Positions 12,081 through 25,213 are shown, counted from the first letter of the stretch. The stretch is DNA of 46,252 nt from a bacterium (GCA_037134535.1 JBAXMA010000003.1:1-46252), one strand, 5' to 3'. The notes: a model not told the origin generated them from the sequence alone. Program-made: numbers and translations.

Positions 12081-13051
12081 TATCTGAAAACGTAATACGA
12101 TCATATCTCGGGACTGTACTGGAACAAGCGGACTTCAAGGGATTGGGCGAAGTCATCAGAGGCAAGGTTCGGGACAGCTATAAGCTCAACGATCGGAGGA
12201 TCCTTGTTACCAGCGATCGCGTGTCGGCATTTGACTGTATAATAGGAACAATACCATTGAAGGGTCAGGTATTGAACCAGCTTGCAACGTTCTGGTTTGA
12301 AAAGACCGCCTGCATAGCTCCGAACCATGTAATCGCAGTTCCGGATCCCAATGTCATGATTGTTGACGAATGCAAGCAGCTCGCGCTTGAGCTGATAGTG
12401 CGCGGCCATATTACCGGCGTGACTAAGACATCGGCCTGGTATAACTACCAGCAGGGTATTCGCAATTTCTGTGGCAATAAACTGGCCGAGGGACTCAGGA
12501 AAGATCAGGAGTTGGAAAGGCCGATTCTGACCCCGACAACAAAGTTTGAGAAGCATGATAGGCCGATTTCGCGGGAGCAAGCCATCTCTGAGGGACTGAT
12601 CGACGGGGATACGTTTGACAGGGCTGCGGCAATCTGCTTCCGGTTGTTTGCCGCCGGGCGCGAGCATGCGAAGAAGCAGGGGCTGATTCTGGTAGATACC
12701 AAGTATGAACTGGGACTTCGCGGCTCAGAGCTTGTTGTGTCTGACGAAGTGCACACACCGGACTCATCGAGATACTGGTTCGCCGACTCCTACCGCGAGC
12801 TGTTTGATGAAGGAAAGGATCAGAGAGAGATAGATAAAGAATACGTCAGGAAATGGCTGGTGAGCCAGGGCTTTCGCGGCGACGGGCCACCCCCGAAGCT
12901 GACTGACGAGGTGCGGATTGAAGCCGCAAGACGCTATATTCAGGCGTACGAAATCATTACCGGCAGCCAGTTTCAGCCCGGAGCTGTTCCTGTTGACAAA
13001 CGCATAGCCGCAGCTCTGTCGAAGGCAGGCTACGAGGCTAGTGTGGCGTAA
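12077..13051 (+). CDS. purC: SAICAR synthetase
   Basis: GKVRDSY, SDRVSAFD, KGQVLNQ, ILTPTTK, LILVDTKYELG, DEVHTPDSSRYW, DKEYVRKWL. Start set at the ATGA overlap. Confidence 0.96.
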   Translation: MISENVIRSYLGTVLEQADFKGLGEVIRGKVRDSYKLNDRRILVTSDRVSAFDCIIGTIPLKGQVLNQLATFWFEKTACIAPNHVIAVPDPNVMIVDECKQLALELIVRGHITGVTKTSAWYNYQQGIRNFCGNKLAEGLRKDQELERPILTPTTKFEKHDRPISREQAISEGLIDGDTFDRAAAICFRLFAAGREHAKKQGLILVDTKYELGLRGSELVVSDEVHTPDSSRYWFADSYRELFDEGKDQREIDKEYVRKWLVSQGFRGDGPPPKLTDEVRIEAARRYIQAYEIITGSQFQPGAVPVDKRIAAALSKAGYEASVA

Positions 13052-13088
13052 ATGCTGAGGCAGGTTCAGGAACGGAGGCGACTGGATC

Positions 13089-13343
13089 TTATTTCAGGTC
13101 GTCGGATGTCGCCTCTCTCGTCCGTTCATTGTGCGCGGCGGTAGCTTTGCGGGCTCTGTCTTGTACTGTTCTGCCGGCTTTCAGTGTATCGTATTGCAAC
13201 ATGGTTCCGATCGTGGCGCTAACTCCTGATTGCTCGACTGGCTGGTTTGTGCCTGTAGCAGCGGTTTGTGCCGGGGTTGCCTTCTCGCACCCGGATGTCA
13301 GGGCAAGAGCAAGCACTGCAGCAGCAAAGGCGGATATTCGCAT
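13089..13343 (-). CDS. Small lipoprotein, hypothetical
   Basis: MRISAFAAAVLALALTSGC has a lipobox-like end. RBS-like AGGA upstream; starts 13 bp after the kinase stop. Confidence 0.7.
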   Translation of the reverse strand: MRISAFAAAVLALALTSGCEKATPAQTAATGTNQPVEQSGVSATIGTMLQYDTLKAGRTVQDRARKATAAHNERTREATSDDLK

Positions 13344-13356
13344 ATCAAAGTTCCTT

Positions 13357-15321
13357 TTAACTCTTTTGCATTGCCCAGGAATCATCTTCGCGTTTTCCGG
13401 TAACACTGTCGCCATCCTGAATCATACGTTGTTCCAGTGCTTTTAACACGGCATGCAGAAGTTGAACTTTCTCGACTGGTTTCTGTACAAATCCCCAGCC
13501 TCCTTGTCCAAGGCGAGAGCGCACGAAGTCACGGGAGAACCCTGAAGTCATTATTACAGCTGCATCGGGATCCCGTTCGATAATCTTGCGGAAAAGCTCG
13601 CGCCCGTCGCTCTGCGGCATAATAAGATCTACAACCACCAGATCAATATCTTCAGACAGCTCATGCAGCATGCTTGCCCCCTGGGCACTGTTTGTGGCCG
13701 TGTGAACCTTGTACCCGCTCTCTTCAAGAATGGCCTGGAAAAGAGCGAGGTCGGACTCGCTGTCGTCTACAACCAGAATAGTCTCACCTCCCATTGGAGT
13801 TCCGGCGGCCGGCTGCGCGGGAATGTCTGCAATGGGAATATGAAAGCTTACAGTTGTGCCCCTGTTCAGCGCGCTTTGCACCGTTATCCAGCCGCCCCAT
13901 CCCAGAATGGTTGCGTGGGCGATTGTCATCCCCAGACCTTTTATGAGCCCAGGCTGTTTAGTAGTGAAGAAAGGCTCAAAAATGTGAGTCAAGGTTTCAC
14001 GGGACATCCCCTGTCCGGTATCTGTGATGCTTAGAATAGCATAGTGTCCCTTGCGGGCATCAGGATTCAGCCGTTGTTTCGGGTGCGAAAACTTCTTCAC
14101 GGATACCTGTACAGTCAGAGTGCCGCCATCCGGCATGGCATCCACTGAGTTATGAAACACGCAAAGCAACAAATCAAGAAGTTGGGCGGCGTCAGCCTTG
14201 ATGTAAGGCATTGTCCCGGGAACAGTAAAAAATGAAATGCGATGATCCGAGAATGTCTTATCAAGAACCTTTGCCGCATCAGTTATTACCTGAGCAATGG
14301 AAATGGGGGTAGTTGCATGGGGTGATCGCGGTTCGCTGGCCTGGGCCAGGTCGGCGAGATGGGCTGTAAGCTCCCTTGCTTCCTTTGTGGCCTCGACGAT
14401 CTTAACAGTGGCTTCGTAGGCTTTTGTCTTGGGAATCAGAGACTCTGCCAGCGAGGCTGCCTGGGTGTCTATTGCACTGATGATATTGCCGAAGTCGTGA
14501 GCAATGCTGCTCGCAAGCGTGCCTATGGCTTCAATCTTCTGTCTGGCAAGCGCACTGCGGGCCATGAGATAACGTTCTGTGATGTCCCGGAATACCAGTA
14601 CCAGTCCGACAGTTCTCATTCCCGTGCCCGATAAGGCGGCAACAGAGCCCTCTATATGCTTAGTGGCGTTCCCTCTTGAGGTCAGCATCATAAGTTCCGG
14701 CACGCATCCCGGCCGCCTGCGACTGATCTTCCCGGCGGGCAGGCTGAATGGCTGGCCGGACTCTACACCAACCGCTTTGAAGATCTCGGAGAGAGGACGT
14801 CCCGTGGCGTCATCAAGCGCCCAGCCGGTAAGCTTCTCGGCCGCCGGGTTAAGAAACACTGTCAGTCCTGACTTCTCAGTTATAATGACCGCATCGTGCA
14901 TGCTGCATACTACGGCTTGGCGCCAGAAGTCGTCTTTAAGAGGAGAAGTCTTCTTGCGATCATCTTTCAGGATTGTCTCAATGCTTTCTTGCAGTTCACG
15001 GTCCTTGAAGGGTCTGACAATGAACTCTGGCGAGGATATATGCCCAATACGAAGCAGCGTTGTTCTGCCCGCTGGATTGGTAAGGACAATAATAGGGATT
15101 CGGAAGCGGGCCTTCAATACTCCGGTAAGTTCCGCTATGTTCGTCGCGTGAGCTGGACCCATATCGATCAGGACCAGAGCGGGATGAGACTCGACGACCT
15201 TTCTGATTGCTTCTGTGGCTGTCGAGGAGACAACGTTATACCCGAGCCGTCCCAGCCGCATTCCGAGCTGGCTTCGCCGACCGACCTTGTCTTCCAGTAA
15301 CAGAAGTGTTGCCTTCGTCAT
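13357..15321 (-). CDS. Hybrid histidine kinase REC-PAS-HisKA-HATPase-REC
   Basis: N-terminal REC (LED, LIDMG), PAS (FLNPAAEKLTGW, FRDITER), H-box IAHDFGN, DTGQGM, IFEPFFTTK, C-terminal REC (VVDD, VVDLIMP, QKP). Confidence 0.93.
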   Translation of the reverse strand: MTKATLLLLEDKVGRRSQLGMRLGRLGYNVVSSTATEAIRKVVESHPALVLIDMGPAHATNIAELTGVLKARFRIPIIVLTNPAGRTTLLRIGHISSPEFIVRPFKDRELQESIETILKDDRKKTSPLKDDFWRQAVVCSMHDAVIITEKSGLTVFLNPAAEKLTGWALDDATGRPLSEIFKAVGVESGQPFSLPAGKISRRRPGCVPELMMLTSRGNATKHIEGSVAALSGTGMRTVGLVLVFRDITERYLMARSALARQKIEAIGTLASSIAHDFGNIISAIDTQAASLAESLIPKTKAYEATVKIVEATKEARELTAHLADLAQASEPRSPHATTPISIAQVITDAAKVLDKTFSDHRISFFTVPGTMPYIKADAAQLLDLLLCVFHNSVDAMPDGGTLTVQVSVKKFSHPKQRLNPDARKGHYAILSITDTGQGMSRETLTHIFEPFFTTKQPGLIKGLGMTIAHATILGWGGWITVQSALNRGTTVSFHIPIADIPAQPAAGTPMGGETILVVDDSESDLALFQAILEESGYKVHTATNSAQGASMLHELSEDIDLVVVDLIMPQSDGRELFRKIIERDPDAAVIMTSGFSRDFVRSRLGQGGWGFVQKPVEKVQLLHAVLKALEQRMIQDGDSVTGKREDDSWAMQKS

Positions 15322-15515
15322 GAGATGCGAGTCCTTCTTCTTCGCCAGCCCGATCGTATCAGCACGTGACAGGTCGATCGCGACGCTGGTCTTGTCTCAT
15401 AAACCAGTGCTGGAATCAAGGGAGATCTCAGCTCAGTCACGGGAAGGGGATGCCGCTCGTTGAGTCGCGGCACTGTCTTCTTGCGGCGGAATCGCGCAGG
15501 GACCGCGATACAGAG

Positions 15516-17186
15516 TCAATAGTCGCGCGACAGCAGCGATCTGCGTCCAAGCACGAGCGGAACAACCGAGGCAAGGGCGGTAAGAGCAAACAGCCATGCG
15601 TATGCGAGAATAATGCCATTGTGAAAATGGTGAGCATCTATCTTTTCCCATACACGCAGAGAGAACAATGAAGCAAACGGGATTTCGGTCAGAAGCATGA
15701 ACCCAAGGCTCATCACAAGGTTGAGTGTACCGCCGAATCCGGAGACTATTGCCGCAGGGTTACGCTCTTTGAGGTCAAGAAAGACGGCCCCGATCCCGGT
15801 GGACATTCCGGACACAGCTATGGACAGACAAAACGCCAGTGCAATAGCAGAGAGCTGCATGTCCGCTGACAACCTCAGCATGTGAGTCGACAGGAACATG
15901 AGGGAGACGCTGATGACCAGCATGCCCGCGAGTGCGATACCGAACTTGGTTAACAGAATTCTCCCCATGCTCGTCGGGGAGAGGCCCAGTATCCAGAAGC
16001 TTTGCCCTTCGAGGCTCACCTGAGGATAGACGAACCTGGAGGCAAGGGAACACAGAACGGTTGAGACACTGAAAATATTGAGAAAGGCTATTGCGGTTCT
16101 CCACTGCGGCAGCTGTTCGTCGTATCTGAACGTTCTCAAACTGGAAAAGTAGAAACCCAATAGGCCGAAGAAAATAAGAAATTGCGACCATTGCATGGGA
16201 TCTCTGAGAAAAGTCCTTGCGTCCTTCATAATGATGGCACGGACATCATGGGCAAGAAAGAAAAGTCCGCGTTCCGCCAACTCCAGAAGAGGCTTCCGGA
16301 TTACGACCCGTCCTGCTGCGCCAATGACCTTTTGCCAGCCATTGAAGAATGTCCATTTTCCAACCAATTCAACCAGCATGGTCAACATCAGGGCATTTGC
16401 CGTCAGAAATGTCAGAAGAAACAGGCCCCTGTTCCATGCACCTCTCCCGAAAGAAGTAATGCCCTCGGCAGTCCACCAGCTGGGCAGCAAAGGCGAGGCT
16501 GCCAGATGAAGGCCCGGTATCAGCTGGGAAGAGAGGATAAACATATTGGGATTGTCTGCATGCTTCGTGTCCCGCACGGTGATCGCCGTGGCAATGGCAA
16601 TGGCCACAAACACCATGACCACAAGATAACGGAGTAGATTGCCTCTGGGCGACCAGCGTACAAACAGCATCGCGACCAGTGCGCCGATTCCGGAGCAAAG
16701 TACGACAAACGGTATCGAGAAGAGCAGCGTCCACAGGGCAAACAGAAGACTGAGATGCTGAGACCACGCATAAGCGCTGATGAATGGAACTACAACAAAG
16801 AAGAATGCCCAGGAGGACAGAAGACAGGACTCCAGAAACTTAAGAACAACAATCTCGGAAATTGAATAAGGCCTGACGAGCAGAAACGGTATGTCGCGCG
16901 AGCGGTAGATTGTCGCATACGAAGTGAGCATGCTTGACAGGGCGAGCATGGTGCCCAGTCCGAGAAAAAACAGGGATAGAAGATTACCCACAAGCATGGA
17001 ACCTATGGGACCCATACGGCCGAGAAATTCGAATCCTGAAAGGAACAATATGAAGAGACCAACCTCGAGACCCGTAACGAAGAACACTATGAATGCCGTC
17101 TTGAAAAGTGATTGCCGTTGCATGTCACGGACCGTACCGCGCAGCATAAATCGGGTTTTCAATATCAATGACGACACTGTTGACAT
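15516..17186 (-). CDS. ABC exporter permease (multi-TM, internally duplicated type)
   Basis: Many hydrophobic helices. FLLVRP, KDARTFLRDPMQWSQ, VSLEGQSFWILGLSP. Adjacent to an ABC ATPase. Confidence 0.88.
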   Translation of the reverse strand: MSTVSSLILKTRFMLRGTVRDMQRQSLFKTAFIVFFVTGLEVGLFILFLSGFEFLGRMGPIGSMLVGNLLSLFFLGLGTMLALSSMLTSYATIYRSRDIPFLLVRPYSISEIVVLKFLESCLLSSWAFFFVVVPFISAYAWSQHLSLLFALWTLLFSIPFVVLCSGIGALVAMLFVRWSPRGNLLRYLVVMVFVAIAIATAITVRDTKHADNPNMFILSSQLIPGLHLAASPLLPSWWTAEGITSFGRGAWNRGLFLLTFLTANALMLTMLVELVGKWTFFNGWQKVIGAAGRVVIRKPLLELAERGLFFLAHDVRAIIMKDARTFLRDPMQWSQFLIFFGLLGFYFSSLRTFRYDEQLPQWRTAIAFLNIFSVSTVLCSLASRFVYPQVSLEGQSFWILGLSPTSMGRILLTKFGIALAGMLVISVSLMFLSTHMLRLSADMQLSAIALAFCLSIAVSGMSTGIGAVFLDLKERNPAAIVSGFGGTLNLVMSLGFMLLTEIPFASLFSLRVWEKIDAHHFHNGIILAYAWLFALTALASVVPLVLGRRSLLSRDY

Positions 17187-17206
17187 AAAGATCGAGCCTC
17201 TCGTTG

Positions 17207-17953
17207 TCAGGCGGATGCAGCCGAACCAGCCTGTCCGGGTCGTGTAAGTGACAGGAATATCTCCTCCAGGTTACCGTCCACGCCGCTCTGCTTCGTTAAT
17301 TGTGCCATCGTACCAATTGCCACAAGACGCCCTGCTGAAATTATTCCGATTCTGTGCGCAATGTCCTCTGCCAGAGCTAGGATGTGTGTGGTTAAAAACA
17401 CGGCAGTCCCGGCCTTTGCTTTTTCAATGAGGAGGTTCTTGATCATCCGGATGCTGTGGGGATCCAGGCCCACAAGCGGCTCATCAATGAAAAGCGCCTG
17501 CGGCGAGTGAAGAAACGTGCAACAGTATGCAAGACGCTGTCGCATACCGTGTGACAAGTCATTGATCAGCACATGGCGATGCTGTGCCAGATCGAACATG
17601 GCGAACGCCTCTTCCATCTCCTGATCCACGTGTTGCCTTGGCACGTTGTAAAGGTCTCCCGTAAAACGGAAGAATTCGGCAGGGGTGAGCCTTTCGTAAA
17701 GGAACGGCGTATCTGGAATATAGCCGATTATCTTCTTCACCGCTACGGAGTTGCTGCGGACGTCCAGACCGGCAATGCTCATGGTTCCACTCGAGGGGGT
17801 CACCAGGCCGGTCAGCATCTTCAGTGTAGTTGTTTTTCCTGCTCCGTTAGGGCCCAGAAAGCAGAATATTTCTCCAGCAGGAATCTCCAACGACAGATCC
17901 CGGACCGCGTAGAAATCGCCGAATCGCTTTGTGAGATTTTGTAAATGGATCAT
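17207..17953 (-). CDS. ABC transporter ATP-binding protein
   Basis: Walker A GPNGAGKTT, signature LSHGMRQR, Walker B LFIDEPLVGLDP, H-loop TTH. Confidence 0.96.
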   Translation of the reverse strand: MIHLQNLTKRFGDFYAVRDLSLEIPAGEIFCFLGPNGAGKTTTLKMLTGLVTPSSGTMSIAGLDVRSNSVAVKKIIGYIPDTPFLYERLTPAEFFRFTGDLYNVPRQHVDQEMEEAFAMFDLAQHRHVLINDLSHGMRQRLAYCCTFLHSPQALFIDEPLVGLDPHSIRMIKNLLIEKAKAGTAVFLTTHILALAEDIAHRIGIISAGRLVAIGTMAQLTKQSGVDGNLEEIFLSLTRPGQAGSAASA

Positions 17954-19449
17954 TTTCTCTCCTGAGCAAGTACCGTGACATTCAGTCTTCCTACCATCTG
18001 TGCCAGGGCGAATTGCTCGGCGAACTCGCCCTCAATAAGGGCGATATGGGCTGCATCCACCGCAGTTTGTCCGAAAGTAGGGTCCATTTCTATCCAGTCT
18101 CCAGCATAGACTGCCGGCCAGGCGTGATAGCAGAAGGCCTCATAGGCTTCGGAGTATGCCAGGCCGATCTTCACGCTTGCGGGTATGCCGGCCGCGCGGG
18201 CAAGCGCAACGAACAGGTATGTGTGCTCGTTGCAGTCTCCGCGCCGCGTGCGCAGTACTTCAGCCGCTGACGGCACGCCAGGTGAGGCGACTTTCTCGAT
18301 GTTCTTGTAGACCCAGTTGCAGATGGCGATTGCAGAATCCATCACGTTTGTCTTGCCGGCCGTCAGCGAGGTTGCCAGTTTCACGATATCGGGTTCTGTT
18401 GCTTGAATGAAGGGCGAGGAGCCCAGATAGTCTTTCATTCTTTCCGGCCCAGGGGGAACAGCCGCGACAGTAGCGGGTATTCCGGCGGCTCTTACTGTAA
18501 GGAGAAATGCCCCGTCTGCCTCGTCTTCAATGGTCTGCCGGTTGCTGAGAATTCCTGATGACTTGGATGAAACGCCTCGCACCCGGAGTTTCAGCAAGGT
18601 GCACTCCCTCGGATTTGTGACGGCGACGTTCGGGTGCACCGCCAGGGCGTTGAGAAGATCTTCTGCATCAGCTCCCGTAGACACCGATGCCATTGCTTCC
18701 TCGGCGCCACATGCCTCAACGACCAGATCTTTCAAGAGTGTCTCCGCCCTGAGAATTGTGCTGTTGTCACCGATCCAGGATTGTGAACTGCTTCCCATGT
18801 ATTCTACAGCAAACACGGCAACATTGGTTTTGCCTCCCCGGAATTCGATCGTTTCACGTGGTAATGCACGAATGGTGACCAGCGTCGGACTCAAGGTGAG
18901 AGGTTCAAGAGTGCGTGTGGTCATGCTTTCGCCGGGCTTCATCCGGCTCATGGCGAGATCCATTCCCGGCGAGTAGACCACAACATCGTCCGGTATTGAG
19001 AGTGATCGTCTGTCTTTGGCGCCACCGGCATCGACTGTAACGTCAAACGTATTCCCGGTACTGCGCCTCCCGTGGACAATCGTTGAGCTGTGCCTGGACA
19101 GTGCTGCCATCCGGAACGATGTGAGACGATACAAAACATCCAGCCTGACGTCTGTGCTTACAGTGATTGATTCCCGCATCCCCATGAGATTGAGATTGAG
19201 CATCAACAGGTTCTCGACTCGATAGCGGGATATGGCGTTGTCGTCGTCGGTTTCAATCCGTGAATGGCTGTATCCCACAGGAGAGTTCTTGAGGAGCAGC
19301 CTCATCCATGTGTCCTTCACGACGATGCCCTGGGGGATAATGTCACGGTATCCGTTCAGGGAATGCGTGAAGTATCCTGGAAAAGCTTCGAATCGCACAA
19401 ACCATGCCGTGGTACAAAACCACGCTACCAGTATGAGAAGCCGTTTCAC
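17950..19449 (-). CDS. Exported or membrane-anchored transglutaminase-like (Cys-His-Asp) protein
   Basis: N-terminal hydrophobic segment; RGDCNEH, ALARAAGIPA, YHAW, WIEMDPTFGQ. Confidence 0.9.
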   Translation of the reverse strand: MKRLLILVAWFCTTAWFVRFEAFPGYFTHSLNGYRDIIPQGIVVKDTWMRLLLKNSPVGYSHSRIETDDDNAISRYRVENLLMLNLNLMGMRESITVSTDVRLDVLYRLTSFRMAALSRHSSTIVHGRRSTGNTFDVTVDAGGAKDRRSLSIPDDVVVYSPGMDLAMSRMKPGESMTTRTLEPLTLSPTLVTIRALPRETIEFRGGKTNVAVFAVEYMGSSSQSWIGDNSTILRAETLLKDLVVEACGAEEAMASVSTGADAEDLLNALAVHPNVAVTNPRECTLLKLRVRGVSSKSSGILSNRQTIEDEADGAFLLTVRAAGIPATVAAVPPGPERMKDYLGSSPFIQATEPDIVKLATSLTAGKTNVMDSAIAICNWVYKNIEKVASPGVPSAAEVLRTRRGDCNEHTYLFVALARAAGIPASVKIGLAYSEAYEAFCYHAWPAVYAGDWIEMDPTFGQTAVDAAHIALIEGEFAEQFALAQMVGRLNVTVLAQERK

Positions 19450-20558
19450 TGACTTTGTAACTCATTACGAACTTCAGCCAGATCTTTTTCAATCGCCTTG
19501 ATTTCCGGATCACTTTCTATGGCGGCTGTGCGTCTGCCCGCCGCAGACGCTGCAATTTCTTCCGCCTTCTCAAGCTCCTGCTGACAGCGCAGCATCTGGC
19601 CTTTCATGCCACGCATTTCCTCCAGCACGTCGCTGCGCTTCTGGCCCGTGGAACTATTCATCGTCTCTTCGAGCTTCATGGCCCTGTCACGCAAGGCATT
19701 ATAGCGGAGTTGAGCTGAATCCCTGCTCCGTTCGACCTCGGTTACTGGCCGGCTATCTGTAAGAGTCTTGCGACGTGCCTTGCCGCGTGCAATCAGTTCG
19801 GCTTCCCTTGTTCGCAGTCCCTGCAGTTTTTGCTCCTGCGGATCCTCTATTGCTGACACTTCTTCGAACGTTCCGGCAGATCCGGGCGCAGCCTCCGGCG
19901 GCTTGACAATTGTGACGGCCGGTCTGATTGGCGGGCGCGAGGCTGTCGGTCGTGTCGGTTTGGGGGTTGCTGCACTGTGGTGCTCAATGATAGTCGGAGC
20001 ACGTTGCCGGTTTTCCACCTTTGCAAGCTGCTCTTTCGCGGCCTTATCAGCAGGATCATCTTCAAGTATCTTCTTTGCAATTGCTGTAAGTTGTTCGTAT
20101 TGCTCCTGCTTCCATAATTCATCGAGCAATATCAGGCGGCCCATATTGATATTCCATTCCTGCGAGGCGGGCGAGAGGGCTCCATACGCTGCGTTGATAG
20201 CCGAGTCGGGCCCATCGTGAAGAAAGGTTCTGCCCGAGTTCCGCGCGGTCTGCAGGGGCTGATTGTAACCCTGATGGACGACCTCGGCCACTCTCTTTGC
20301 CGAACCAATCTTTCCAAGCCGGACTTCGCTCTCTATCAACCGGCTCAAAATGTCCTGATGAATGGCGGGATGGTAGCGGGCCCATGTTTCGTAGCGAACC
20401 AGTCGGTTCTCGGCCGCTGAGAAGTTGCCGCGCTCAATTTCTGTTTTTGCCTCTGCGAGCTGAAAGAGGACAATTGCGCGTCTGATCAATGGCGTTACCA
20501 TTACAATGAGAATGCAGCCAAGCAGCGCAGCCACCAGAGTGCCGATCAATGCTTTCAT
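19446..20558 (-). CDS. Membrane-anchored hypothetical protein (TPR-like helices, Pro-rich linker, coiled coil)
   Basis: N-terminal TM, TPR-like AKKILEDDPADKAAKEQL, P/T/A-rich linker, charged heptad C-terminus. Overlaps both neighbours. Confidence 0.75.
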   Translation of the reverse strand: MKALIGTLVAALLGCILIVMVTPLIRRAIVLFQLAEAKTEIERGNFSAAENRLVRYETWARYHPAIHQDILSRLIESEVRLGKIGSAKRVAEVVHQGYNQPLQTARNSGRTFLHDGPDSAINAAYGALSPASQEWNINMGRLILLDELWKQEQYEQLTAIAKKILEDDPADKAAKEQLAKVENRQRAPTIIEHHSAATPKPTRPTASRPPIRPAVTIVKPPEAAPGSAGTFEEVSAIEDPQEQKLQGLRTREAELIARGKARRKTLTDSRPVTEVERSRDSAQLRYNALRDRAMKLEETMNSSTGQKRSDVLEEMRGMKGQMLRCQQELEKAEEIAASAAGRRTAAIESDPEIKAIEKDLAEVRNELQSQ

Positions 20559-22096
20559 TACTTCTTTCCCGGCTTGGTATCGTCTTCCTCGCTCGCCTTG
20601 GCTGTTTGCTTGAAACGCAGGTGCGGAATCTGGTAGGTGCGCATAATTCGCTTGTTCGCTTCTTCAAGAGTTGCCTGATCGAGGATAATGTCTATTGACA
20701 TGGACAGAAGCCGGAAGCTCCTGAGCCCTTTATCCCGTTCAACCAGCGTGAAAACATCATCAATGTTTCGTACCGGATCCCCGTTAATGTGTGTGATAAC
20801 CTGATCTCGCAAGTGCTGGTAGCTGACATTGATCGGATCAGGCAGGACGTGAGACATGATAACAACTCGGTCACCGGGTCTTTCCGGCTTGTCGGCACTT
20901 GTGAGGTAGAGATGTACAAGCCTTGCGTCAGCGCTGGAATTCCAACCTTCGCCATATGCCCGCAGATAATCGCCGGTTAGCTCCCTGATCAGAAAACCGC
21001 CATCGGCAAGATACGCGGCCTGTTCGCCGGATGTGTTGTCGGGAATAAGCAGCTGATCATCCGTCCGTCTCGTCATTTCTACACTCACTGCCTTTATTTC
21101 ACCATTTCGAACGATTTTCGCATTAACGAGGTCGCCGGGATAGCGGTGGCCCTTGATCAGGTAGGGGAATGCAAGCCGCCCGAATTCGCTGTCTTTGTAG
21201 AAACCAAGCTTATCAACCGCGCAGTTGTCCCATTCAAGTATCACGTCTTGAGGCAGCAGCGACTTGGCAGCTCCAGTTCCTGATCTGACTTTCAGCACAA
21301 CAATCCCGCCGGGGAGGCGGTCCACCTTCAGATATCTCCTCTCGGCTGGGTCGACGAGCGGTGCCCACGAGAATCCCGCGCCCGCAAAACCACGGTAAAC
21401 CGGCTGAGCCATGTCGTCTATGAAATGCCGGAGAACCGGATAAGGCAGAAGCGTTCCCATGCGTGTATTGTGGTCATACCACATGATCAGGCCGGCAACC
21501 TTGTTACTGTGCAGAACGACGGCGCCCTGACCATTCACATTCATGTCTGCCAGCGCCGTGAAGGCAAGTACGCCTCCAAGGCCGGCCGGAAGGTCTGCCA
21601 CGGAGATCTCGACGATTGTTCCGGAGCTACGTGAAATTCCGTCTGTGTCATTGAACTGGACGATCTGGACAGGTGAGTCCTTGAGAACCTTTTCTGCGAG
21701 ACCGAGCGGAACAAGCCGGGGCATCCGGGCAGAATCCGCGATCTTCAGTACGGCAAGGTTTGCGTCCTTGTCAGATAATTCCACTGTAGCGGTATATTTT
21801 TCACCGCTAAGGCTCTCTTGAAGCTCAATCAGAGTATGATTACGAACAAGTTGCGCAATCGTCAGTACCCTGTTGGTGCCGATCAGGTAACCATAACCCT
21901 GCCGGACCGCCGGATCGGTCTTCTGCCATGGCATGAATGCGTCAAATCCCTGGCTTGTTACCATGACACGGACAAGACTGTTCTCCATGTCGTCTGGATA
22001 AGCCCGGCCCGGAATCACCAGCAGAATGAACACGAGCATTCCTGCCGCAATTTTGACTGTGCGCGAGATAAGATAGCTTTGGTTGATGGGTGGCAT
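20558..22096 (-). CDS. Deg/HtrA protease-PDZ paralogue, catalytically inactive
   Basis: Co-linear with the neighbouring protease (PWQ motif, two PDZ-like regions). TNAH is replaced by TIAQ, DCDLA by DANLA and NPGNSGG by NVNGQGA. Signal peptide present. Confidence 0.85.
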   Translation of the reverse strand: MPPINQSYLISRTVKIAAGMLVFILLVIPGRAYPDDMENSLVRVMVTSQGFDAFMPWQKTDPAVRQGYGYLIGTNRVLTIAQLVRNHTLIELQESLSGEKYTATVELSDKDANLAVLKIADSARMPRLVPLGLAEKVLKDSPVQIVQFNDTDGISRSSGTIVEISVADLPAGLGGVLAFTALADMNVNGQGAVVLHSNKVAGLIMWYDHNTRMGTLLPYPVLRHFIDDMAQPVYRGFAGAGFSWAPLVDPAERRYLKVDRLPGGIVVLKVRSGTGAAKSLLPQDVILEWDNCAVDKLGFYKDSEFGRLAFPYLIKGHRYPGDLVNAKIVRNGEIKAVSVEMTRRTDDQLLIPDNTSGEQAAYLADGGFLIRELTGDYLRAYGEGWNSSADARLVHLYLTSADKPERPGDRVVIMSHVLPDPINVSYQHLRDQVITHINGDPVRNIDDVFTLVERDKGLRSFRLLSMSIDIILDQATLEEANKRIMRTYQIPHLRFKQTAKASEEDDTKPGKK

Positions 22097-22111
22097 GTGT
22101 GAGTGTTTGGT

Positions 22112-23599
22112 CTATTTTGAATTAATTTCCGGCTCTATTTCCTGTTGTGTCCTGTGAATGCCATACCGGCGTTCAACTTCTGCTTCTGCCTTCGCCGCGG
22201 CCCGGGCATCTATCACCAGTACGTGCTCCATGCCTTCGAAACTCAGAACGTGGAAGCCGTCCTGAGGCTTGGCGATCGCATTTCTGAGATCCTTCAGGTT
22301 CCCGATTTTCACTCCGTTCGCCATCGCCACTATACCGTGCATGAACTGCTGATGGTATGTGTTGACGGGGTGGGGCAGGCGCGCGGTTAAAACCACAAAC
22401 TCCTCGCGGTTGGCGGCAAGATTGTCCGTTTTGGCGTAAAGAGAATAGTAGAGAAGTTGTTGCGCATTGCCGGTCCCGACCCCCTGACCGAGAGTCTTGA
22501 GGTACTCTCGAGTCAAGGGCGAAAACACCAGGCCTCCAATAATGAAACAGTCCGGGGTCTCGTCGTAGAGATTCCTGAACACAAAAGGATCACGCGGATT
22601 GGTCAGTGGCACAACGGCATTAGTTGTCGCTCCGCCACGCCAAATCCGGAAGTTTACGGATTCGCCCCATTGCTTGCGTTCCAGCAATTCGTGGTACTCC
22701 ATTGTCGTATTATCAAGCCGTACCGTACCATCGCTGCGAATCTCATGATTGTCGATAGCCATCAATACATCGCCCGGTTTCAAGACTTTTGCTGCAGCTC
22801 CGTATGGGTCGAGATAGTACACCACGACGCCCATCAAGTCGTTCTTCAGCTTGTACTCCTTTACGAGGGCGGGATTTTGTATAGACAGGGTGGCCGCACC
22901 AAGCTCCGGATAGCCGTTGTATGTGCCGTCGGAAATATCTGCAAGAAAGTGCTTAATTACGGGCATGGGGATCGCATAGCCGATGTTGTCGGCGTGCATG
23001 AGGCCCTGAAACGCCATTCCAACCACCTTGCCCTGATAGAATACAGGCCCGCCGCTGTTTCCCGGATTGATGGCGGCATCGACTTGCAGCACAAGATGAT
23101 TGTCCACTCCGCTGTGGCTGTACTCACCATAGTCGATCCTGGAGACGACTCCTCTGGTTACCGAGAGTTTTGTGCCGCCGACCGGATAGCCCAGTACAGA
23201 CACCTCGTCATTCAATTGCGGCAGAATTTCAGAAAGAGGCGCGGGTCGTGTGCCTTCAAAGAAATCAGGTTCGTCAACTTCCAGGATGGCAAGATCGCAG
23301 TCGTGCCCTATGAAACTTACCCGTGCCGCATGAAGTGTGGCCTCCTGATTCTTCTGCACCTGTATGAAGCGCGCATTGGAAACCACATGTGCATTGGTGA
23401 GAATTCGTTTCCGGCTGATGACAAAGCCTGTGCCGCTGGCCTGCATCGGAGGGAGCGCCTGCCACGGCAGCGCATAGTTCCTGTTCTGAACTGAAACGTA
23501 AATTTTTATGACCGCACTTGTAAGCAGCTTTTCGGCCGAGACGGCAGTGAGCGGTGGGATAAGCACGGCAGCCAGGAGCAAAGCCAGCAACCGCCTCAT
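22112..23599 (-). CDS. Deg/HtrA-family trypsin-like serine protease with PDZ domains (plant Deg2/Deg9-like architecture)
   Basis: Signal peptide MRRLLALLLAA; SGTGF, ILTNAHVV, HDCDLA, TRGVVSRI, QVDAAINPGNSGGP, GGLVFSPL. Confidence 0.93.
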   Translation of the reverse strand: MRRLLALLLAAVLIPPLTAVSAEKLLTSAVIKIYVSVQNRNYALPWQALPPMQASGTGFVISRKRILTNAHVVSNARFIQVQKNQEATLHAARVSFIGHDCDLAILEVDEPDFFEGTRPAPLSEILPQLNDEVSVLGYPVGGTKLSVTRGVVSRIDYGEYSHSGVDNHLVLQVDAAINPGNSGGPVFYQGKVVGMAFQGLMHADNIGYAIPMPVIKHFLADISDGTYNGYPELGAATLSIQNPALVKEYKLKNDLMGVVVYYLDPYGAAAKVLKPGDVLMAIDNHEIRSDGTVRLDNTTMEYHELLERKQWGESVNFRIWRGGATTNAVVPLTNPRDPFVFRNLYDETPDCFIIGGLVFSPLTREYLKTLGQGVGTGNAQQLLYYSLYAKTDNLAANREEFVVLTARLPHPVNTYHQQFMHGIVAMANGVKIGNLKDLRNAIAKPQDGFHVLSFEGMEHVLVIDARAAAKAEAEVERRYGIHRTQQEIEPEINSK

Positions 23600-23683
23600 G
23601 TTTGTCTGAAAGTTGAGTCCGATTAACCGTCTCACGATCACTCCCCTGATACAGATCCTACTCCCGCATTGTCGGCGCGAAAA

Positions 23684-24238
23684 CTAGAACTTATAGGCGA
23701 CTTCAAGGCCAAACTCCAGCTGGCTTGCGTCGAAATCCCCAACATCACCCCATTCTCTGAAAGAGTAGTATGCCACGCCTCTCAACTCAAGAGTGGAGGA
23801 GAAGGGCACATGCAGTCCGGCCTCGAGTTCCCAGTAGAGATCCGACCAGTGATTGACTTCCTTGCCTTGTACGTAGTGCTTGAGCACGCCTATTCCCAGC
23901 AGTAGCAGGTTCTCTTCAAACACCAGGCGTATCTGGGGAGTTACGATAGACTCTATGTTCGGCACTATAGACTGAGCGTTTAGTACCACTGACGTCATGG
24001 TGGTGTTTGGCGTGAAGCTGACGCCGAATTGCCAGTAAGCTTTTGCTTCGTGGTATTCATAAGCAAGAAGATAGCTCACGTCGCCGTCCCCGAACGGAGA
24101 CGCCGTGTCTTCTGGATGACTGACGTACTGACGGATGCCACCGGTGATTGTTGATGATTTTGCTGACTGCGCCGGAGCGGAGCTGACTTGGATACAAACT
24201 AGAAAAGCGGCTGCACCTATCAATGTCTTAGTCGTCAC
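23684..24238 (-). CDS. Small outer-membrane beta-barrel protein
   Basis: Likely GTG start with GAAGGA RBS, signal peptide, amphipathic aromatic-rich strands, and C-terminal LEVAYKF (BAM-type signal). Confidence 0.7.
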   Translation of the reverse strand: MTTKTLIGAAAFLVCIQVSSAPAQSAKSSTITGGIRQYVSHPEDTASPFGDGDVSYLLAYEYHEAKAYWQFGVSFTPNTTMTSVVLNAQSIVPNIESIVTPQIRLVFEENLLLLGIGVLKHYVQGKEVNHWSDLYWELEAGLHVPFSSTLELRGVAYYSFREWGDVGDFDASQLEFGLEVAYKF

Positions 24239-24418
24239 AACGGTTCCTTCTCTTTGCAAACAGGCAAACTTGCAGGTTTACAGTCACAATATCGGCTGCA
24301 TAATGCACAGTATTCAGCGCGGACTCAAGCTGCAATTCCTATCGCTTCTTACTTGCAACAGGAAGACGTTTCTATAATACTCGCATCTTTCCGAAAACAA
24401 GTGCGTGGAGGCAGTCAG

Positions 24419-25213
24419 ATGCATCTCGTTGTGTGTATCAAGCAGGTCCCGGACACGACCAATGTCAGGATAAATCCGGAGACCAATACCCTTATTCGTG
24501 CAGGAGTGGCTTCTGTCGTCAATCCTTTTGATATGTATGCGATTGAAGAGGCCGTAAGGATTAAGGAAAAACTCGGCGGTAAAGTTACGGTGCTCACAAT
24601 GGGTCCGCCTCAGGCCGACGCCGTGCTGCGCGAGGCTATTTCCATGGGTGCTGATGAGGGCGTTCTTGTTTCAGACAGGGCTTTCGCCGGTAGTGATACC
24701 TGGGCCACCAGTTATACCCTTGCGGCGGCCATCCGTAAAATCGGTGACTACGGTATTATTATCTGCGGGAAACAGGCTTCAGACGGCGACACCGCACAGG
24801 TAGGGCCCGGTATTGCAACACACCTTGATCTTCCCCAGGTGACTTATGTCAGGAAGATCCATGAAATTGCCGAGGATCATATTGTCGCTGAACGCATGCT
24901 GGACGAAGGGTCAGAAGTCATTACCTGCCCGGTGCCATGCATTTTAACGGTTGTCAAGGAATTGAACGAGCCGCGCCTGCCGTCCCTTCGTGGAAAAATG
25001 GCTGCAAAGAAGGCGCAGCTTATTCAATGGGCGGCAAAGGATCTTGACTGCGATCCCAAGGGGCTTGGCCTGGATGGCTCACCGACCAAGGTGGTGCGGA
25101 TCTTCACTCCTCCGCCCCGCGGTGGCGGCGAGATTCTTGCAGGTGAAGCTGACGCGGCTGTCCGTGCTCTTGTTGAAAAACTCAAAGATGTGGTCATCGC
25201 GACCTCCAAGTAG
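24419..25213 (+). CDS. etfB: Electron transfer flavoprotein beta subunit
   Basis: GGAGG RBS; MHLVVCIKQVPD, NPFD, TMGPPQA, FAGSDTWATS, GKQASDGDTAQVGP, NEPRLPS. Confidence 0.96.
   Translation: MHLVVCIKQVPDTTNVRINPETNTLIRAGVASVVNPFDMYAIEEAVRIKEKLGGKVTVLTMGPPQADAVLREAISMGADEGVLVSDRAFAGSDTWATSYTLAAAIRKIGDYGIIICGKQASDGDTAQVGPGIATHLDLPQVTYVRKIHEIAEDHIVAERMLDEGSEVITCPVPCILTVVKELNEPRLPSLRGKMAAKKAQLIQWAAKDLDCDPKGLGLDGSPTKVVRIFTPPPRGGGEILAGEADAAVRALVEKLKDVVIATSK

What the first reader, a model, noticed from the sequence alone, without database searches (positions are those of the whole stretch)
20558..23599. Tandem active Deg protease and triad-dead paralogue, resembling an unfused Deg7/Nma111 layout
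Two adjacent, similar-length, signal-peptide paralogues lie 15 bp apart. The first has an intact His/Asp/Ser triad. The second replaces all three (H>Q at 21851-21853, D>N at 21758-21760, GNSGG>NGQGA) yet keeps a full 512-aa frame with the PWQ motif and PDZ regions, which suggests selection rather than decay. Established: plant Deg7 and fungal Nma111 join an active and a degenerate protease-PDZ-PDZ unit in one chain. Inference: these two proteins form a hetero-oligomeric protease/chaperone cage with the dead subunit as scaffold or substrate adaptor.
Basis: partly seen in the sequence, partly recalled or inferred. Interest (0 to 1): 0.7.

Follow-up and report, generated by a model that had tools for sequence, protein, structure and literature searches.

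The report
Active Deg protease with conserved dead partner
A PVC-group bacterium encodes a working Deg2/Deg9-type quality-control protease directly followed by a sister gene that has lost its cutting residues yet is kept under selection in many related species, so it most likely serves as a non-cutting partner or chaperone.

Summary
Gene A (22112-23599, minus strand) has an intact His71/Asp102/Ser182 triad. Gene B (20558-22096) lies 15 nt downstream and reads Gln82/Asn113/Gln190 at those positions. Both have a Trypsin_2 + PDZ_2 + PDZ_3 architecture.

B is not decaying. A is followed by B in 60 of 64 fetched loci (Kiritimatiellia, Lentisphaeria, Verrucomicrobiae, Leptospiraceae). B's start overlaps A's stop by 4 or 1 nt in 45 of 56 loci. 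No B-type protein has a complete triad: 0 of 64 in the loci and 0 of 147 library representatives. B's dN/dS is 0.05-0.34. Its protease domain is relaxed (33% mean identity against 59% in A), but its PDZ domains are as conserved as A's. The Deg2 cage-locking residues (loop-LA Trp, internal-ligand Tyr, GG turn) are invariant in 53 of 53 B sequences. The B model (pLDDT 91) matches Deg9/Deg2 at TM 0.81-0.89.

Both proteins belong to the Deg2/Deg9 subfamily, so the Deg7/Nma111 likeness is an analogy and was not shown to be homology. One natural A-B fusion exists.

Physical A-B association remains an inference, because the complex predictor was unavailable.

The parts
22112..23599 (-). Gene A: active Deg2/Deg9-type HtrA protease of 495 aa. 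An upstream GTG at 23641 would give 509 aa. The triad is His71 (23387-23389), Asp102 (23294-23296) and Ser182 in GNSGG (23054-23056).
   Evidence: All 58 of 58 A-type sequences are HDS.
22097..22111 (-). 15-nt spacer between A's stop (TAG) and B's ATG. In most relatives the two genes overlap instead.
   Evidence: The overlap is 4 nt in 37 and 1 nt in 8 of 56 loci.
20558..22096 (-). Gene B: triad-dead paralogue (pseudoprotease) of 512 aa, with a protease fold, PDZ1 and PDZ2.
21851..21853 (-). B Gln82 (CAA) at the catalytic His position.
21758..21760 (-). B Asn113 (AAC) at the catalytic Asp position. Asn occupies this column in 108 of 147 B-type representatives.
21521..21535 (-). B NGQGA in place of GNSGG. 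Gln190 (21527-21529) sits at the catalytic Ser position.
21926..21931 (-). B Pro56-Trp57 of the PWQ motif. This Trp is the equivalent of loop-LA Trp-134 of Deg2 and is invariant in 53 of 53 B sequences.
   Evidence: Deg2 paper PMC3481350 (passages)
20996..21013 (-). B Tyr362...Gly366-Gly367. These are the equivalents of the Deg2 internal PDZ2 ligand Tyr-440 and its (A/G)G turn. Tyr and the second Gly are invariant in 53 of 53.
   Evidence: PMC3481350 (passages)
23684..24259 (-). Upstream same-strand gene of 191 aa: a small outer-membrane beta-barrel-like protein with no Pfam family. It is lineage-specific context for the pair.
15516..20558 (-). Downstream same-strand genes with overlapping stops and starts. 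They are a TPR/coiled-coil protein (19446-20558), a transglutaminase-like protein (17950-19449), an ABC ATPase (17207-17953) and a PF16949 protein (15516-17186). This is lineage-specific context and not part of the core pair.

Best explanation
A and B are the two products of an ancient duplication of a Deg2/Deg9-type (protease-PDZ1-PDZ2) HtrA gene, and they are inherited as one co-translated unit. A is the cutting enzyme. B has lost the His and Ser needed for catalysis. It keeps the whole Deg2-like protomer fold, both PDZ domains and the residues that in Deg2 lock the protomer and build the cage.

The most likely mechanism is as follows. Both proteins are exported to the periplasm and made in near-equal amounts. 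They assemble through their protease-fold domains and PDZ contacts into a mixed Deg2-like cage, for example an A trimer stacked on a B trimer. In that cage B binds or holds unfolded clients and gates or scaffolds the complex, while only A cleaves.

Shown: the gene arrangement, loss of the triad, purifying selection, the pattern of domain conservation, and the predicted fold. Inferred: export, equal stoichiometry, physical A-B contact, and the division of labour.
For: Conservation of the pair:
- A is directly followed by B in 60 of 64 loci fetched with a B profile. Three of the other loci are cut before A, and one Myxococcales locus holds a single A-type gene.
- The pair is also present in 11 of 40 sampled relatives.
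- A B orthologue at E <= 1e-60 occurs in 30 of 401 genomes sampled from the phylum, in 24 of 185 genera.

Coupling:
- B's start overlaps A's stop by 4 nt in 37 and by 1 nt in 8 of 56 loci.

Triad status:
- 58 of 58 A-type sequences are HDS. None of 64 B sequences has His at the His column, and 3 of 64 have Ser at the Ser column.
- Of the best 150 library representatives for the B profile, 147 are B-type and none has a complete triad. Six have His, 8 have Ser, and none has both.

Selection:
- In all listed genome pairs whose B copies are at least 60% identical and that gave a finite estimate, dN/dS of B is 0.05-0.34. For A in the same pairs it is 0.06-0.32.
- The window's B against the same-genus copy gives dN 0.24 and dS 1.87, near saturation.

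Where selection acts (36 paired genomes):
- Mean identity in A is 0.59 for the protease domain, 0.43 for PDZ1 and 0.41 for PDZ2.
- Mean identity in B is 0.33, 0.39 and 0.44 for the same domains.
- The loop-LA Trp, the internal-ligand Tyr and the Gly of the turn are invariant in 53 of 53 B sequences. In Deg2 these residues fix loop LA on PDZ2 and lock the hexamer (PMC3481350, passages).

Fold:
- The AF2 model of B has pLDDT 91.1 and pTM 0.85.
- The best Foldseek matches are Deg9 5il9 and Deg2 4fln, at TM 0.81-0.89 and rmsd 2.6-3.0 A over about 465 columns.

Shared history:
- All 26 B rows plus the C half of the fusion P0003 form one clade (SH-aLRT 96).
- The A and B subtrees show the same groupings, for example window+L045, L083-85, L051+L054 and the Verrucomicrobiae set.

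Rosetta-stone hint:
- P0003 (1020 aa, with a signal peptide) has an A-type active N half. The A profile scores it 502 bits and the B profile 246 bits.
- Its C half is B-type and dead. The B profile scores it 298 bits, and the A profile gives 109 and 52 bits for two stretches.

Precedents:
- The degenerate protease domain of DEG7 mediates its trimerisation (PMC3194040, passages).
- The pseudoprotease MamO promotes MamE-dependent proteolysis (PMC4794232, passages).
Against: - No direct test of A-B contact was possible.
- Co-inheritance, start/stop overlap and congruent trees show co-expression and co-inheritance. They do not show binding.
- In this window the genes are 15 nt apart and do not overlap.
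- The A-B fusion is a single metagenomic protein (1 member, 1 contig). A search with it found no second fused relative.
- B has its own N-terminal export-like segment and a complete protomer fold, so it could equally form homo-oligomers.
- The single B clade could be helped by long-branch attraction. B rows are long, the tree is a 'quick' search, and the tool warns that stars are less reliable with long rows.
- One in-frame stop lies inside the six-frame B match in G002 and in 4 of 30 matches of the phylum survey. For G002 the ORF scan gives an intact 559-aa frame. The other four were not examined.
- Many same-class genomes carry only a single A-type gene, so the protease works without B in those lineages.
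Confidence: 0.5

Rival explanations
1. B is a stand-alone periplasmic holdase or chaperone that forms its own Deg2-like homo-oligomers. It is co-transcribed with A only so that clients can be held or degraded by two separate machines.
For: B keeps a complete protomer fold and the cage-locking residues. It has its own N-terminal hydrophobic segment. Deg2 itself has both protease and chaperone activities (PMC3481350, abstract passage). That the E. coli DegP Ser-to-Ala mutant retains chaperone function is recalled and comes from no call.
Against: B was never found without an adjacent A in loci that extend far enough upstream. Start/stop overlap in 45 of 56 loci and a natural A-B fusion fit subunits of one complex better than two independent machines. 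None of this excludes the rival.
Confidence: 0.28
2. B is a negative regulator. It mixes into A trimers or caps A cages so as to lower or delay proteolysis, and it does not handle clients itself.
For: Replacing active subunits with dead ones reduces the number of active sites per particle. In Deg2 the hexamer is the locked resting state (PMC3481350, passages), and B keeps the locking residues.
Against: The PDZ1 and PDZ2 domains of B are as conserved as those of A. That suggests ligand binding, not mere capping. No data bear on activity.
Confidence: 0.12
3. The dead protease domain of B has gained a new function unrelated to A, such as metal or small-ligand binding as in MamO.
For: The precedent is MamO, a repurposed pseudoprotease (PMC4794232, passages). 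Asn at the former Asp column is kept in 108 of 147 B-type representatives, and a GxGAP-like remnant of the oxyanion loop is common.
Against: The protease domain is the least conserved part of B, at 0.33 mean identity. The residues at the former His and Ser columns vary widely. No newly invariant polar cluster was seen in the protease domain.
Confidence: 0.07
4. B is a decaying pseudogene that happens still to be open.
For: All three triad residues are replaced.
Against: B keeps an open 512-aa frame. Orthologues are present across several classes and in Leptospiraceae. dN/dS is 0.05-0.34. Structural residues are invariant. The fold is predicted with confidence.
Confidence: 0.01

Closest known systems
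Plant Deg2 and Deg9 (PDB 4FLN, 5IL9): HtrA proteases with protease-PDZ1-PDZ2 that form locked cages
   Same: They are the best PDB sequence matches for both A (E 5.6e-76 to Deg2) and the B profile (E 2.4e-71 to 2.1e-63). They share the same Pfam PDZ_3 domain. The B model superposes on whole protomers at TM 0.81-0.89. The loop-LA Trp and the internal PDZ2 ligand Tyr with its GG turn are kept.
   Different: Deg2 and Deg9 are eukaryotic, catalytically active and homo-oligomeric. Here a bacterial active copy is paired with a dead copy. In the tree, the two eukaryotic Deg9-like rows group with single-copy bacterial A-type genes (SH-aLRT 88) and not with B.
Plant DEG7 and fungal Nma111: one chain with an active and a degenerate protease-PDZ-PDZ unit
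   Same: The layout is active unit first and dead unit second. In DEG7 the degenerate domain has a structural role, namely trimerisation (PMC3194040, passages).
   Different: Here there are two genes and not one chain. A and B are of the Deg2/Deg9 type. No hit to the Nma111-type PDZ_1 family was seen at E <= 0.1; the assignment of PF12812 to Nma111 is recalled. DEG7 orthologues are reported only in plants and fungi and as a separate HtrA group (PMC3194040, passages). Homology of the two duplication events was not tested, because no Deg7 or Nma111 sequence was available.
MamE and MamO of magnetotactic bacteria
   Same: An HtrA-type protease works with a trypsin-fold pseudoprotease that is retained by selection and promotes the active enzyme's proteolysis. 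Pseudoproteases arose repeatedly by duplication (PMC4794232, passages).
   Different: MamO's activating function lies in a fused TauE transporter domain, and its protease domain binds metal. B has PDZ domains and no transporter domain, and it belongs to a different HtrA subfamily.
Deg5-Deg8 hetero-hexamer of the thylakoid lumen, and ClpP/ClpR cores of cyanobacteria and plastids
   Same: These are hetero-oligomeric protease particles built from paralogues. The Clp protease core of chloroplasts and cyanobacteria is cited as an oligomer containing inactive protease domains (both named in PMC3194040, passages).
   Different: Whether Deg5 and Deg8 are both catalytically active was not read in any call. 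ClpP/R is an unrelated fold. Neither is a two-gene operon of Deg2-type proteins.
Fused two-unit bacterial forms found here: P0003, P0006 (named Legionella massiliensis DegP precursor by its source) and P0039
   Same: Each is a single chain with one active and one dead Deg2/9-type unit. The P0003 C half lies inside the B clade.
   Different: P0006 and P0039 have the dead unit first. The two halves of P0006 are sisters (SH-aLRT 99), so they come from an independent duplication.

Membership tests
HtrA/Deg (S1C) proteases | Trypsin-fold protease domain followed by one or more PDZ domains | tested here: met
   Both A and B score Trypsin_2 plus PDZ_2 plus PDZ_3 above the Pfam cut-offs. The B model matches whole HtrA protomers.
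HtrA/Deg (S1C) proteases | Catalytic His-Asp-Ser triad | tested here: not met
   This feature is met by A (His71, Asp102, Ser182). It is not met by B (Gln82, Asn113, Gln190). None of 64 B sequences in the loci and none of 147 B-type representatives has a full triad. B is a member by fold and descent only, that is, a pseudoenzyme.
DegP/DegQ 'Do' subfamily (NCBIfam TIGR02037) | Score at or above the curated cut-off of 416.2 bits | tested here: not met
   A scores 118.2 bits and B 27.2 bits. The genome has a separate true member on contig C150 at 491.7 bits.
Deg2/Deg9 subfamily | Second PDZ of the PDZ_3 (PF17815) type | tested here: met
   A scores 1.7e-24 and B 7.7e-25. These are the only two matches in the genome, and there are none in 14 control genomes.
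Deg2/Deg9 subfamily | Loop-LA Trp stacking on the Tyr of an internal PDZ2 ligand that is followed by an (A/G)G turn (PMC3481350) | tested here: met
   At sequence level, PW is present in 53 of 53 B and 44 of 44 A sequences. The Tyr is present in 53 of 53 B and 41 of 44 A sequences; the window's A has Cys there. The second Gly of the turn is present in 53 of 53 B and 44 of 44 A sequences. The mapping to Deg2 and Deg9 comes from the alignments. The stacking itself was not inspected in coordinates.
Deg2/Deg9 subfamily | Trimer-of-protomers cage (hexamer or larger) | not testable with these tools
Deg7/Nma111 | One polypeptide of about 1000 aa with two protease units and four PDZ domains | tested here: not met
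   A and B are two separate ORFs with a stop codon and a 15-nt spacer between them. Fused relatives are rare: P0003 is a singleton.
Deg7/Nma111 | Common descent with the Deg7/Nma111 clade | not tested
   No Deg7 or Nma111 sequence was returned by any search, and none is in the PDB lists. The literature places DEG7 in a separate group restricted to plants and fungi (PMC3194040, passages).

The most novel reading that the evidence does not exclude
The A-B pair is a split, half-dead HtrA cage, for example an A3B3 hexamer. In it a dedicated pseudoprotease trimer acts as the client-binding, gating or scaffolding half for the catalytic trimer. This design would then have arisen independently at least three times in HtrA proteases: the PVC/Leptospiraceae B clade, the Legionella-type dead-active fusions, and eukaryotic Deg7/Nma111. 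That would point to a general functional advantage of cages with only half their sites active.
Probability: 0.4. Interest if true: 0.65.

Novelty: new variant of a known kind. Interest (0 to 1): 0.5.

Why it matters
HtrA pseudoproteases are so far known from a few special cases, namely the second domain of DEG7/Nma111 and MamO. This finding is a large, old bacterial family: at least 147 clusters at 50% identity, present in about 7% of genomes sampled from the phylum and also in Leptospiraceae. Its members are always encoded right behind their active paralogue. Because the two halves are separate genes, the contribution of a dead subunit to an HtrA cage could be studied cleanly. It also adds an envelope quality-control system specific to PVC-group bacteria, which have no studied Deg2-type enzymes. 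Full-text searches for HtrA pseudoproteases, for inactive HtrA paralogues and hetero-oligomers, and for the Pfam accessions returned no paper whose title or abstract start describes this pair. Only the four papers read and one passage were examined.

Tried and rejected
The queue was full, and the tool was declared unavailable. Nothing was folded.
- I considered folding the natural fusion P0003 as a stand-in. MAFFT placed the B sequences on the N half (alignment A4), and a search with P0003 found no other fused relatives to build a proper alignment. That fold was therefore not run. The second structure job went to the upstream beta-barrel gene instead.
- RNA evidence: no RNA holder was listed.
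- The promoter and terminator scan of 13000-25000 gave counts at the level of the shuffles (7 against 7.4, and 10 against 10.3). It says nothing on the transcription unit.
- The search of earlier findings was busy and returned nothing.
- A first MAFFT run timed out and was repeated with faster settings. The first tree call did not finish and was continued.
- The pseudogene reading was rejected.
- Reading B as a member of the DegP/DegQ 'Do' equivalogs was rejected, because it scores far below the cut-offs.


Full report
**Observation.**
The window holds two adjacent minus-strand ORFs. They are 22112-23641 (509 aa from a GTG, or 495 aa from the ATG at 23599) and 20558-22096 (512 aa). Fifteen nucleotides separate the TAG of the first from the ATG of the second. 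The two proteins, here called A and B, align over 460 columns at 23% identity, E 1e-35. Pfam finds Trypsin_2, PDZ_2 and PDZ_3 in both. The protease domain of B only just passes its cut-off, at 30.0 bits against 27.6.

A has His71, Asp102 and Ser182 (GNSGG). The one exception is the label "signal peptide", which rests on hydrophobic N-termini and a predicted N-terminal helix in B and not on a dedicated predictor.

**Genome context.**
The window is contig C3 of a 3.7-Mb assembly that is 83% complete. A and B are its only PDZ_3 genes, and none of 14 control genomes has one. A canonical DegP/DegQ-type gene lies elsewhere in the genome, at 491.7 bits against a cut-off of 416.2. A/B is therefore an additional system and not the housekeeping HtrA. 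Record titles of related loci name Kiritimatiellia, Lentisphaerae/Victivallales and Verrucomicrobiota MAGs.

**Is the dead copy conserved?**
- In 40 relatives, 11 genomes carry a B orthologue (36-68% identity), each next to an A orthologue (49-55% identity where full-length). Others carry only one A-like gene.
- A scan of species-representative genomes with a B profile returned 64 loci.
- A is directly followed by B on the same strand in 60 of them. Three are cut before A's position (L048, L066, L086), and one Myxococcales locus (L095) holds a single A-type gene.
- The 60 include Verrucomicrobiales/Limisphaerales loci (B 28-31% identical to the window's B) and two Leptospiraceae loci (24-25%).
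- B's start codon overlaps A's stop by 4 nt in 37 and by 1 nt in 8 of 56 loci with both genes complete.
- In a sample of 401 genomes of the phylum, 30 have a B orthologue at E <= 1e-60, in 24 of 185 genera.

**Triad status.**
- All 58 A-type sequences have His-Asp-Ser.
- None of 64 B sequences has His at the His column, and three have Ser at the Ser column.
- A profile search of 1.84 billion representatives gave 1766 hits at E <= 1e-30.
- Of the best 150, 147 score higher with the B profile than with the A profile. None of these has a complete triad: six have His, eight have Ser, and none has both.
- The former Asp column is Asn in 108 of 147.

**Selection.**
Nei-Gojobori estimates were made on genome pairs whose B copies are at least 60% identical. 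They give dN/dS of 0.05-0.34 for B and 0.06-0.32 for A. In most pairs with dS below 1, B is somewhat higher than A, for example 0.156 against 0.058 for L053/L058. In some pairs it is lower, for example 0.051 against 0.125 for L088/L090. The window's B against its same-genus orthologue gives dN 0.24 and dS 1.87, which is near saturation. This rules out neutral decay.

**Where selection acts.**
Mean pairwise identity across 36 genomes with both genes:

| Domain | A | B |
|---|---|---|
| Protease | 0.59 | 0.33 |
| PDZ1 | 0.43 | 0.39 |
| PDZ2 | 0.41 | 0.44 |

The protease domain of B is relaxed, while its PDZ domains are as constrained as those of A. Invariant in all 53 aligned B sequences are Pro56-Trp57, Tyr362 and Gly367.

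By the alignments to Deg2 and Deg9, these correspond to the loop-LA Trp-134, the Tyr-440 of the internal PDZ2 ligand and its (A/G)G turn. The Deg2 structure paper describes these as fixing loop LA on PDZ2, making the protomer rigid and locking the hexameric resting state (PMC3481350, passages found by term search).

**Fold.**
An AlphaFold2 model of B built on 53 sequences has mean pLDDT 91.1 and pTM 0.85. Foldseek ranks Deg9 (5il9), a Deg2/Deg9 chimera (5ilb) and Deg2 (4fln) first. These match at TM 0.81-0.89 and rmsd 2.6-3.0 A over about 465 columns. DegP and DegQ follow at TM about 0.45-0.6. Sequence searches of the PDB give the same order for both A and B. Neither protein reaches any NCBIfam equivalog cut-off.

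**History.**
An IQ-TREE 'quick' tree was built from 71 rows under LG+C20 PMSF and rooted on the genome's own DegP/Q.
- All 26 B rows plus the C half of P0003 fall in one clade (SH-aLRT 96).
- The same groupings appear in the A and B subtrees.
- Two eukaryotic Deg9-like rows group with single-copy bacterial A-type genes (SH-aLRT 88).
- B rows are long, and the tool warns that stars are less reliable in that case. A single origin of B is therefore likely but not proven.

**Fused forms.**
A search for longer relatives found the following proteins.
- P0003 is 1020 aa, a metagenomic singleton with a signal peptide. Its N half is A-type and active and its C half is B-type and dead. No second fused relative was found.
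- P0006 is 1031 aa and is named Legionella massiliensis DegP precursor by its source. P0039 is 1072 aa. Both have the dead unit first.
- The two halves of P0006 are sisters (SH-aLRT 99), which shows an independent duplication and decay.

**Mechanism.**
Taken together, B is a pseudoprotease that has kept what a Deg2-type protomer needs to fold, bind ligands through its PDZ domains and assemble. It has lost only catalysis, and it is made together with A.

The best-supported reading is a mixed Deg2-like particle in which B is the non-cutting half, acting as scaffold, client holder or gate. This parallels the degenerate domain of DEG7, which carries trimerisation (PMC3194040, passages). It also parallels MamO, which promotes MamE-dependent proteolysis (PMC4794232, passages). 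I give this reading 0.5.

A stand-alone chaperone (0.28), an inhibitor (0.12) and a new ligand-binding function (0.07) are not excluded.

**Relation to Deg7/Nma111.**
The layout, active unit then dead unit, is alike. However, A and B are Deg2/Deg9-type by domain family, sequence and fold. The DEG7 paper reports DEG7 orthologues only in plants and fungi, as a separate HtrA group that arose by internal duplication and fusion (PMC3194040, passages; PMC3473262, passages). I could obtain no Deg7 or Nma111 sequence, so common descent of the two dead units is untested. On present evidence the resemblance is convergent.

**Surroundings.**
- Upstream on the same strand, at 23684-24259, lies a 191-aa gene with no Pfam hit. 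A homologue sits directly upstream of A in 19 of 50 loci with enough sequence.
- Its model (pLDDT 89) is all-beta behind a signal helix. It resembles small outer-membrane barrels (OmpA transmembrane domain, NspA, OmpX, Ail) at TM about 0.5.
- Downstream, with overlapping stops and starts, lie a TPR/coiled-coil protein, a transglutaminase-like protein, an ABC ATPase and a PF16949 protein.
- The transglutaminase-like and ABC genes follow B in 7 of 41 loci with at least 4 kb downstream.
- Both neighbourhoods are lineage-specific and are not part of the core pair.

**Novelty.**
Three full-text searches returned no paper whose title or abstract start describes this bacterial pair. They covered HtrA with pseudoprotease; HtrA with proteolytically inactive, paralog and hetero-oligomer; and PF17815 with PF12812. 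I read only term-matched passages of PMC3194040, PMC3473262, PMC4794232 and PMC3481350, and one passage of PMC7539657. I rate the finding a new variant of a known kind, with interest 0.5.

Noticed in passing
window 23684-24259 (-): A 191-aa gene with no Pfam family sits just upstream of A. It has a signal-like helix, an all-beta model (pLDDT 89) that resembles small outer-membrane barrels (OmpA transmembrane domain, NspA, OmpX, Ail; TM about 0.5), and a C-terminal Phe. A homologue sits directly upstream of A in 19 of 50 loci. It could be a client or an anchor of the protease pair.
   Followed up: partly
window 15516-20558 (-): Four same-strand genes follow B with 1-nt or 4-nt stop/start overlaps: a TPR/coiled-coil protein, a transglutaminase-like protein, an ABC ATPase and a PF16949 'ABC_tran_2' protein. 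A hybrid histidine kinase follows at 13357-15321. The transglutaminase-like and ABC genes follow B in 7 of 41 loci with at least 4 kb downstream.
   Followed up: partly
P0006 (Legionella massiliensis, named by its source) and P0039: Both are single chains with a dead Deg2/9-type unit first and an active unit second. The two halves of P0006 are sister rows in the tree, so a half-dead two-unit HtrA arose independently of the B clade.
   Followed up: partly
P0003 (1020 aa, metagenomic singleton): This is a natural fusion of an A-type active unit and a B-type dead unit behind one signal peptide. A linker of about 40 residues replaces B's own N-terminus. No second fused relative was found.
   Followed up: yes
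P0007, P0010, P0013, P0014, P0017, P0020, P0023, P0024, P0036, P0038, P0041: These proteins of about 1000-1300 aa carry a shared N-terminal region of several hundred residues with no listed Pfam family. It has recurring motifs visible by eye. The region sits in front of a Deg9-like active protease-PDZ unit and an acidic, Ser-rich tail. Their origin is unknown.
   Followed up: no
G024 contigs C427 and C332 (L029, L034): One 11-Mb same-class genome with 6% contamination carries two A-B pairs. The second pair groups with the Verrucomicrobiae pairs in the tree.
   Followed up: partly
G371, G406, G203, G078; G002: The six-frame B matches contain one in-frame stop each. For G002 an intact 559-aa ORF covers the gene, so the stop probably lies upstream of the true start. 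The other four were not examined.
   Followed up: partly
B family, former catalytic Asp column (window 21758-21760): Asn is kept at this column in 108 of 147 B-type representatives, although the His and Ser columns vary freely. This suggests a retained structural role for this position.
   Followed up: no
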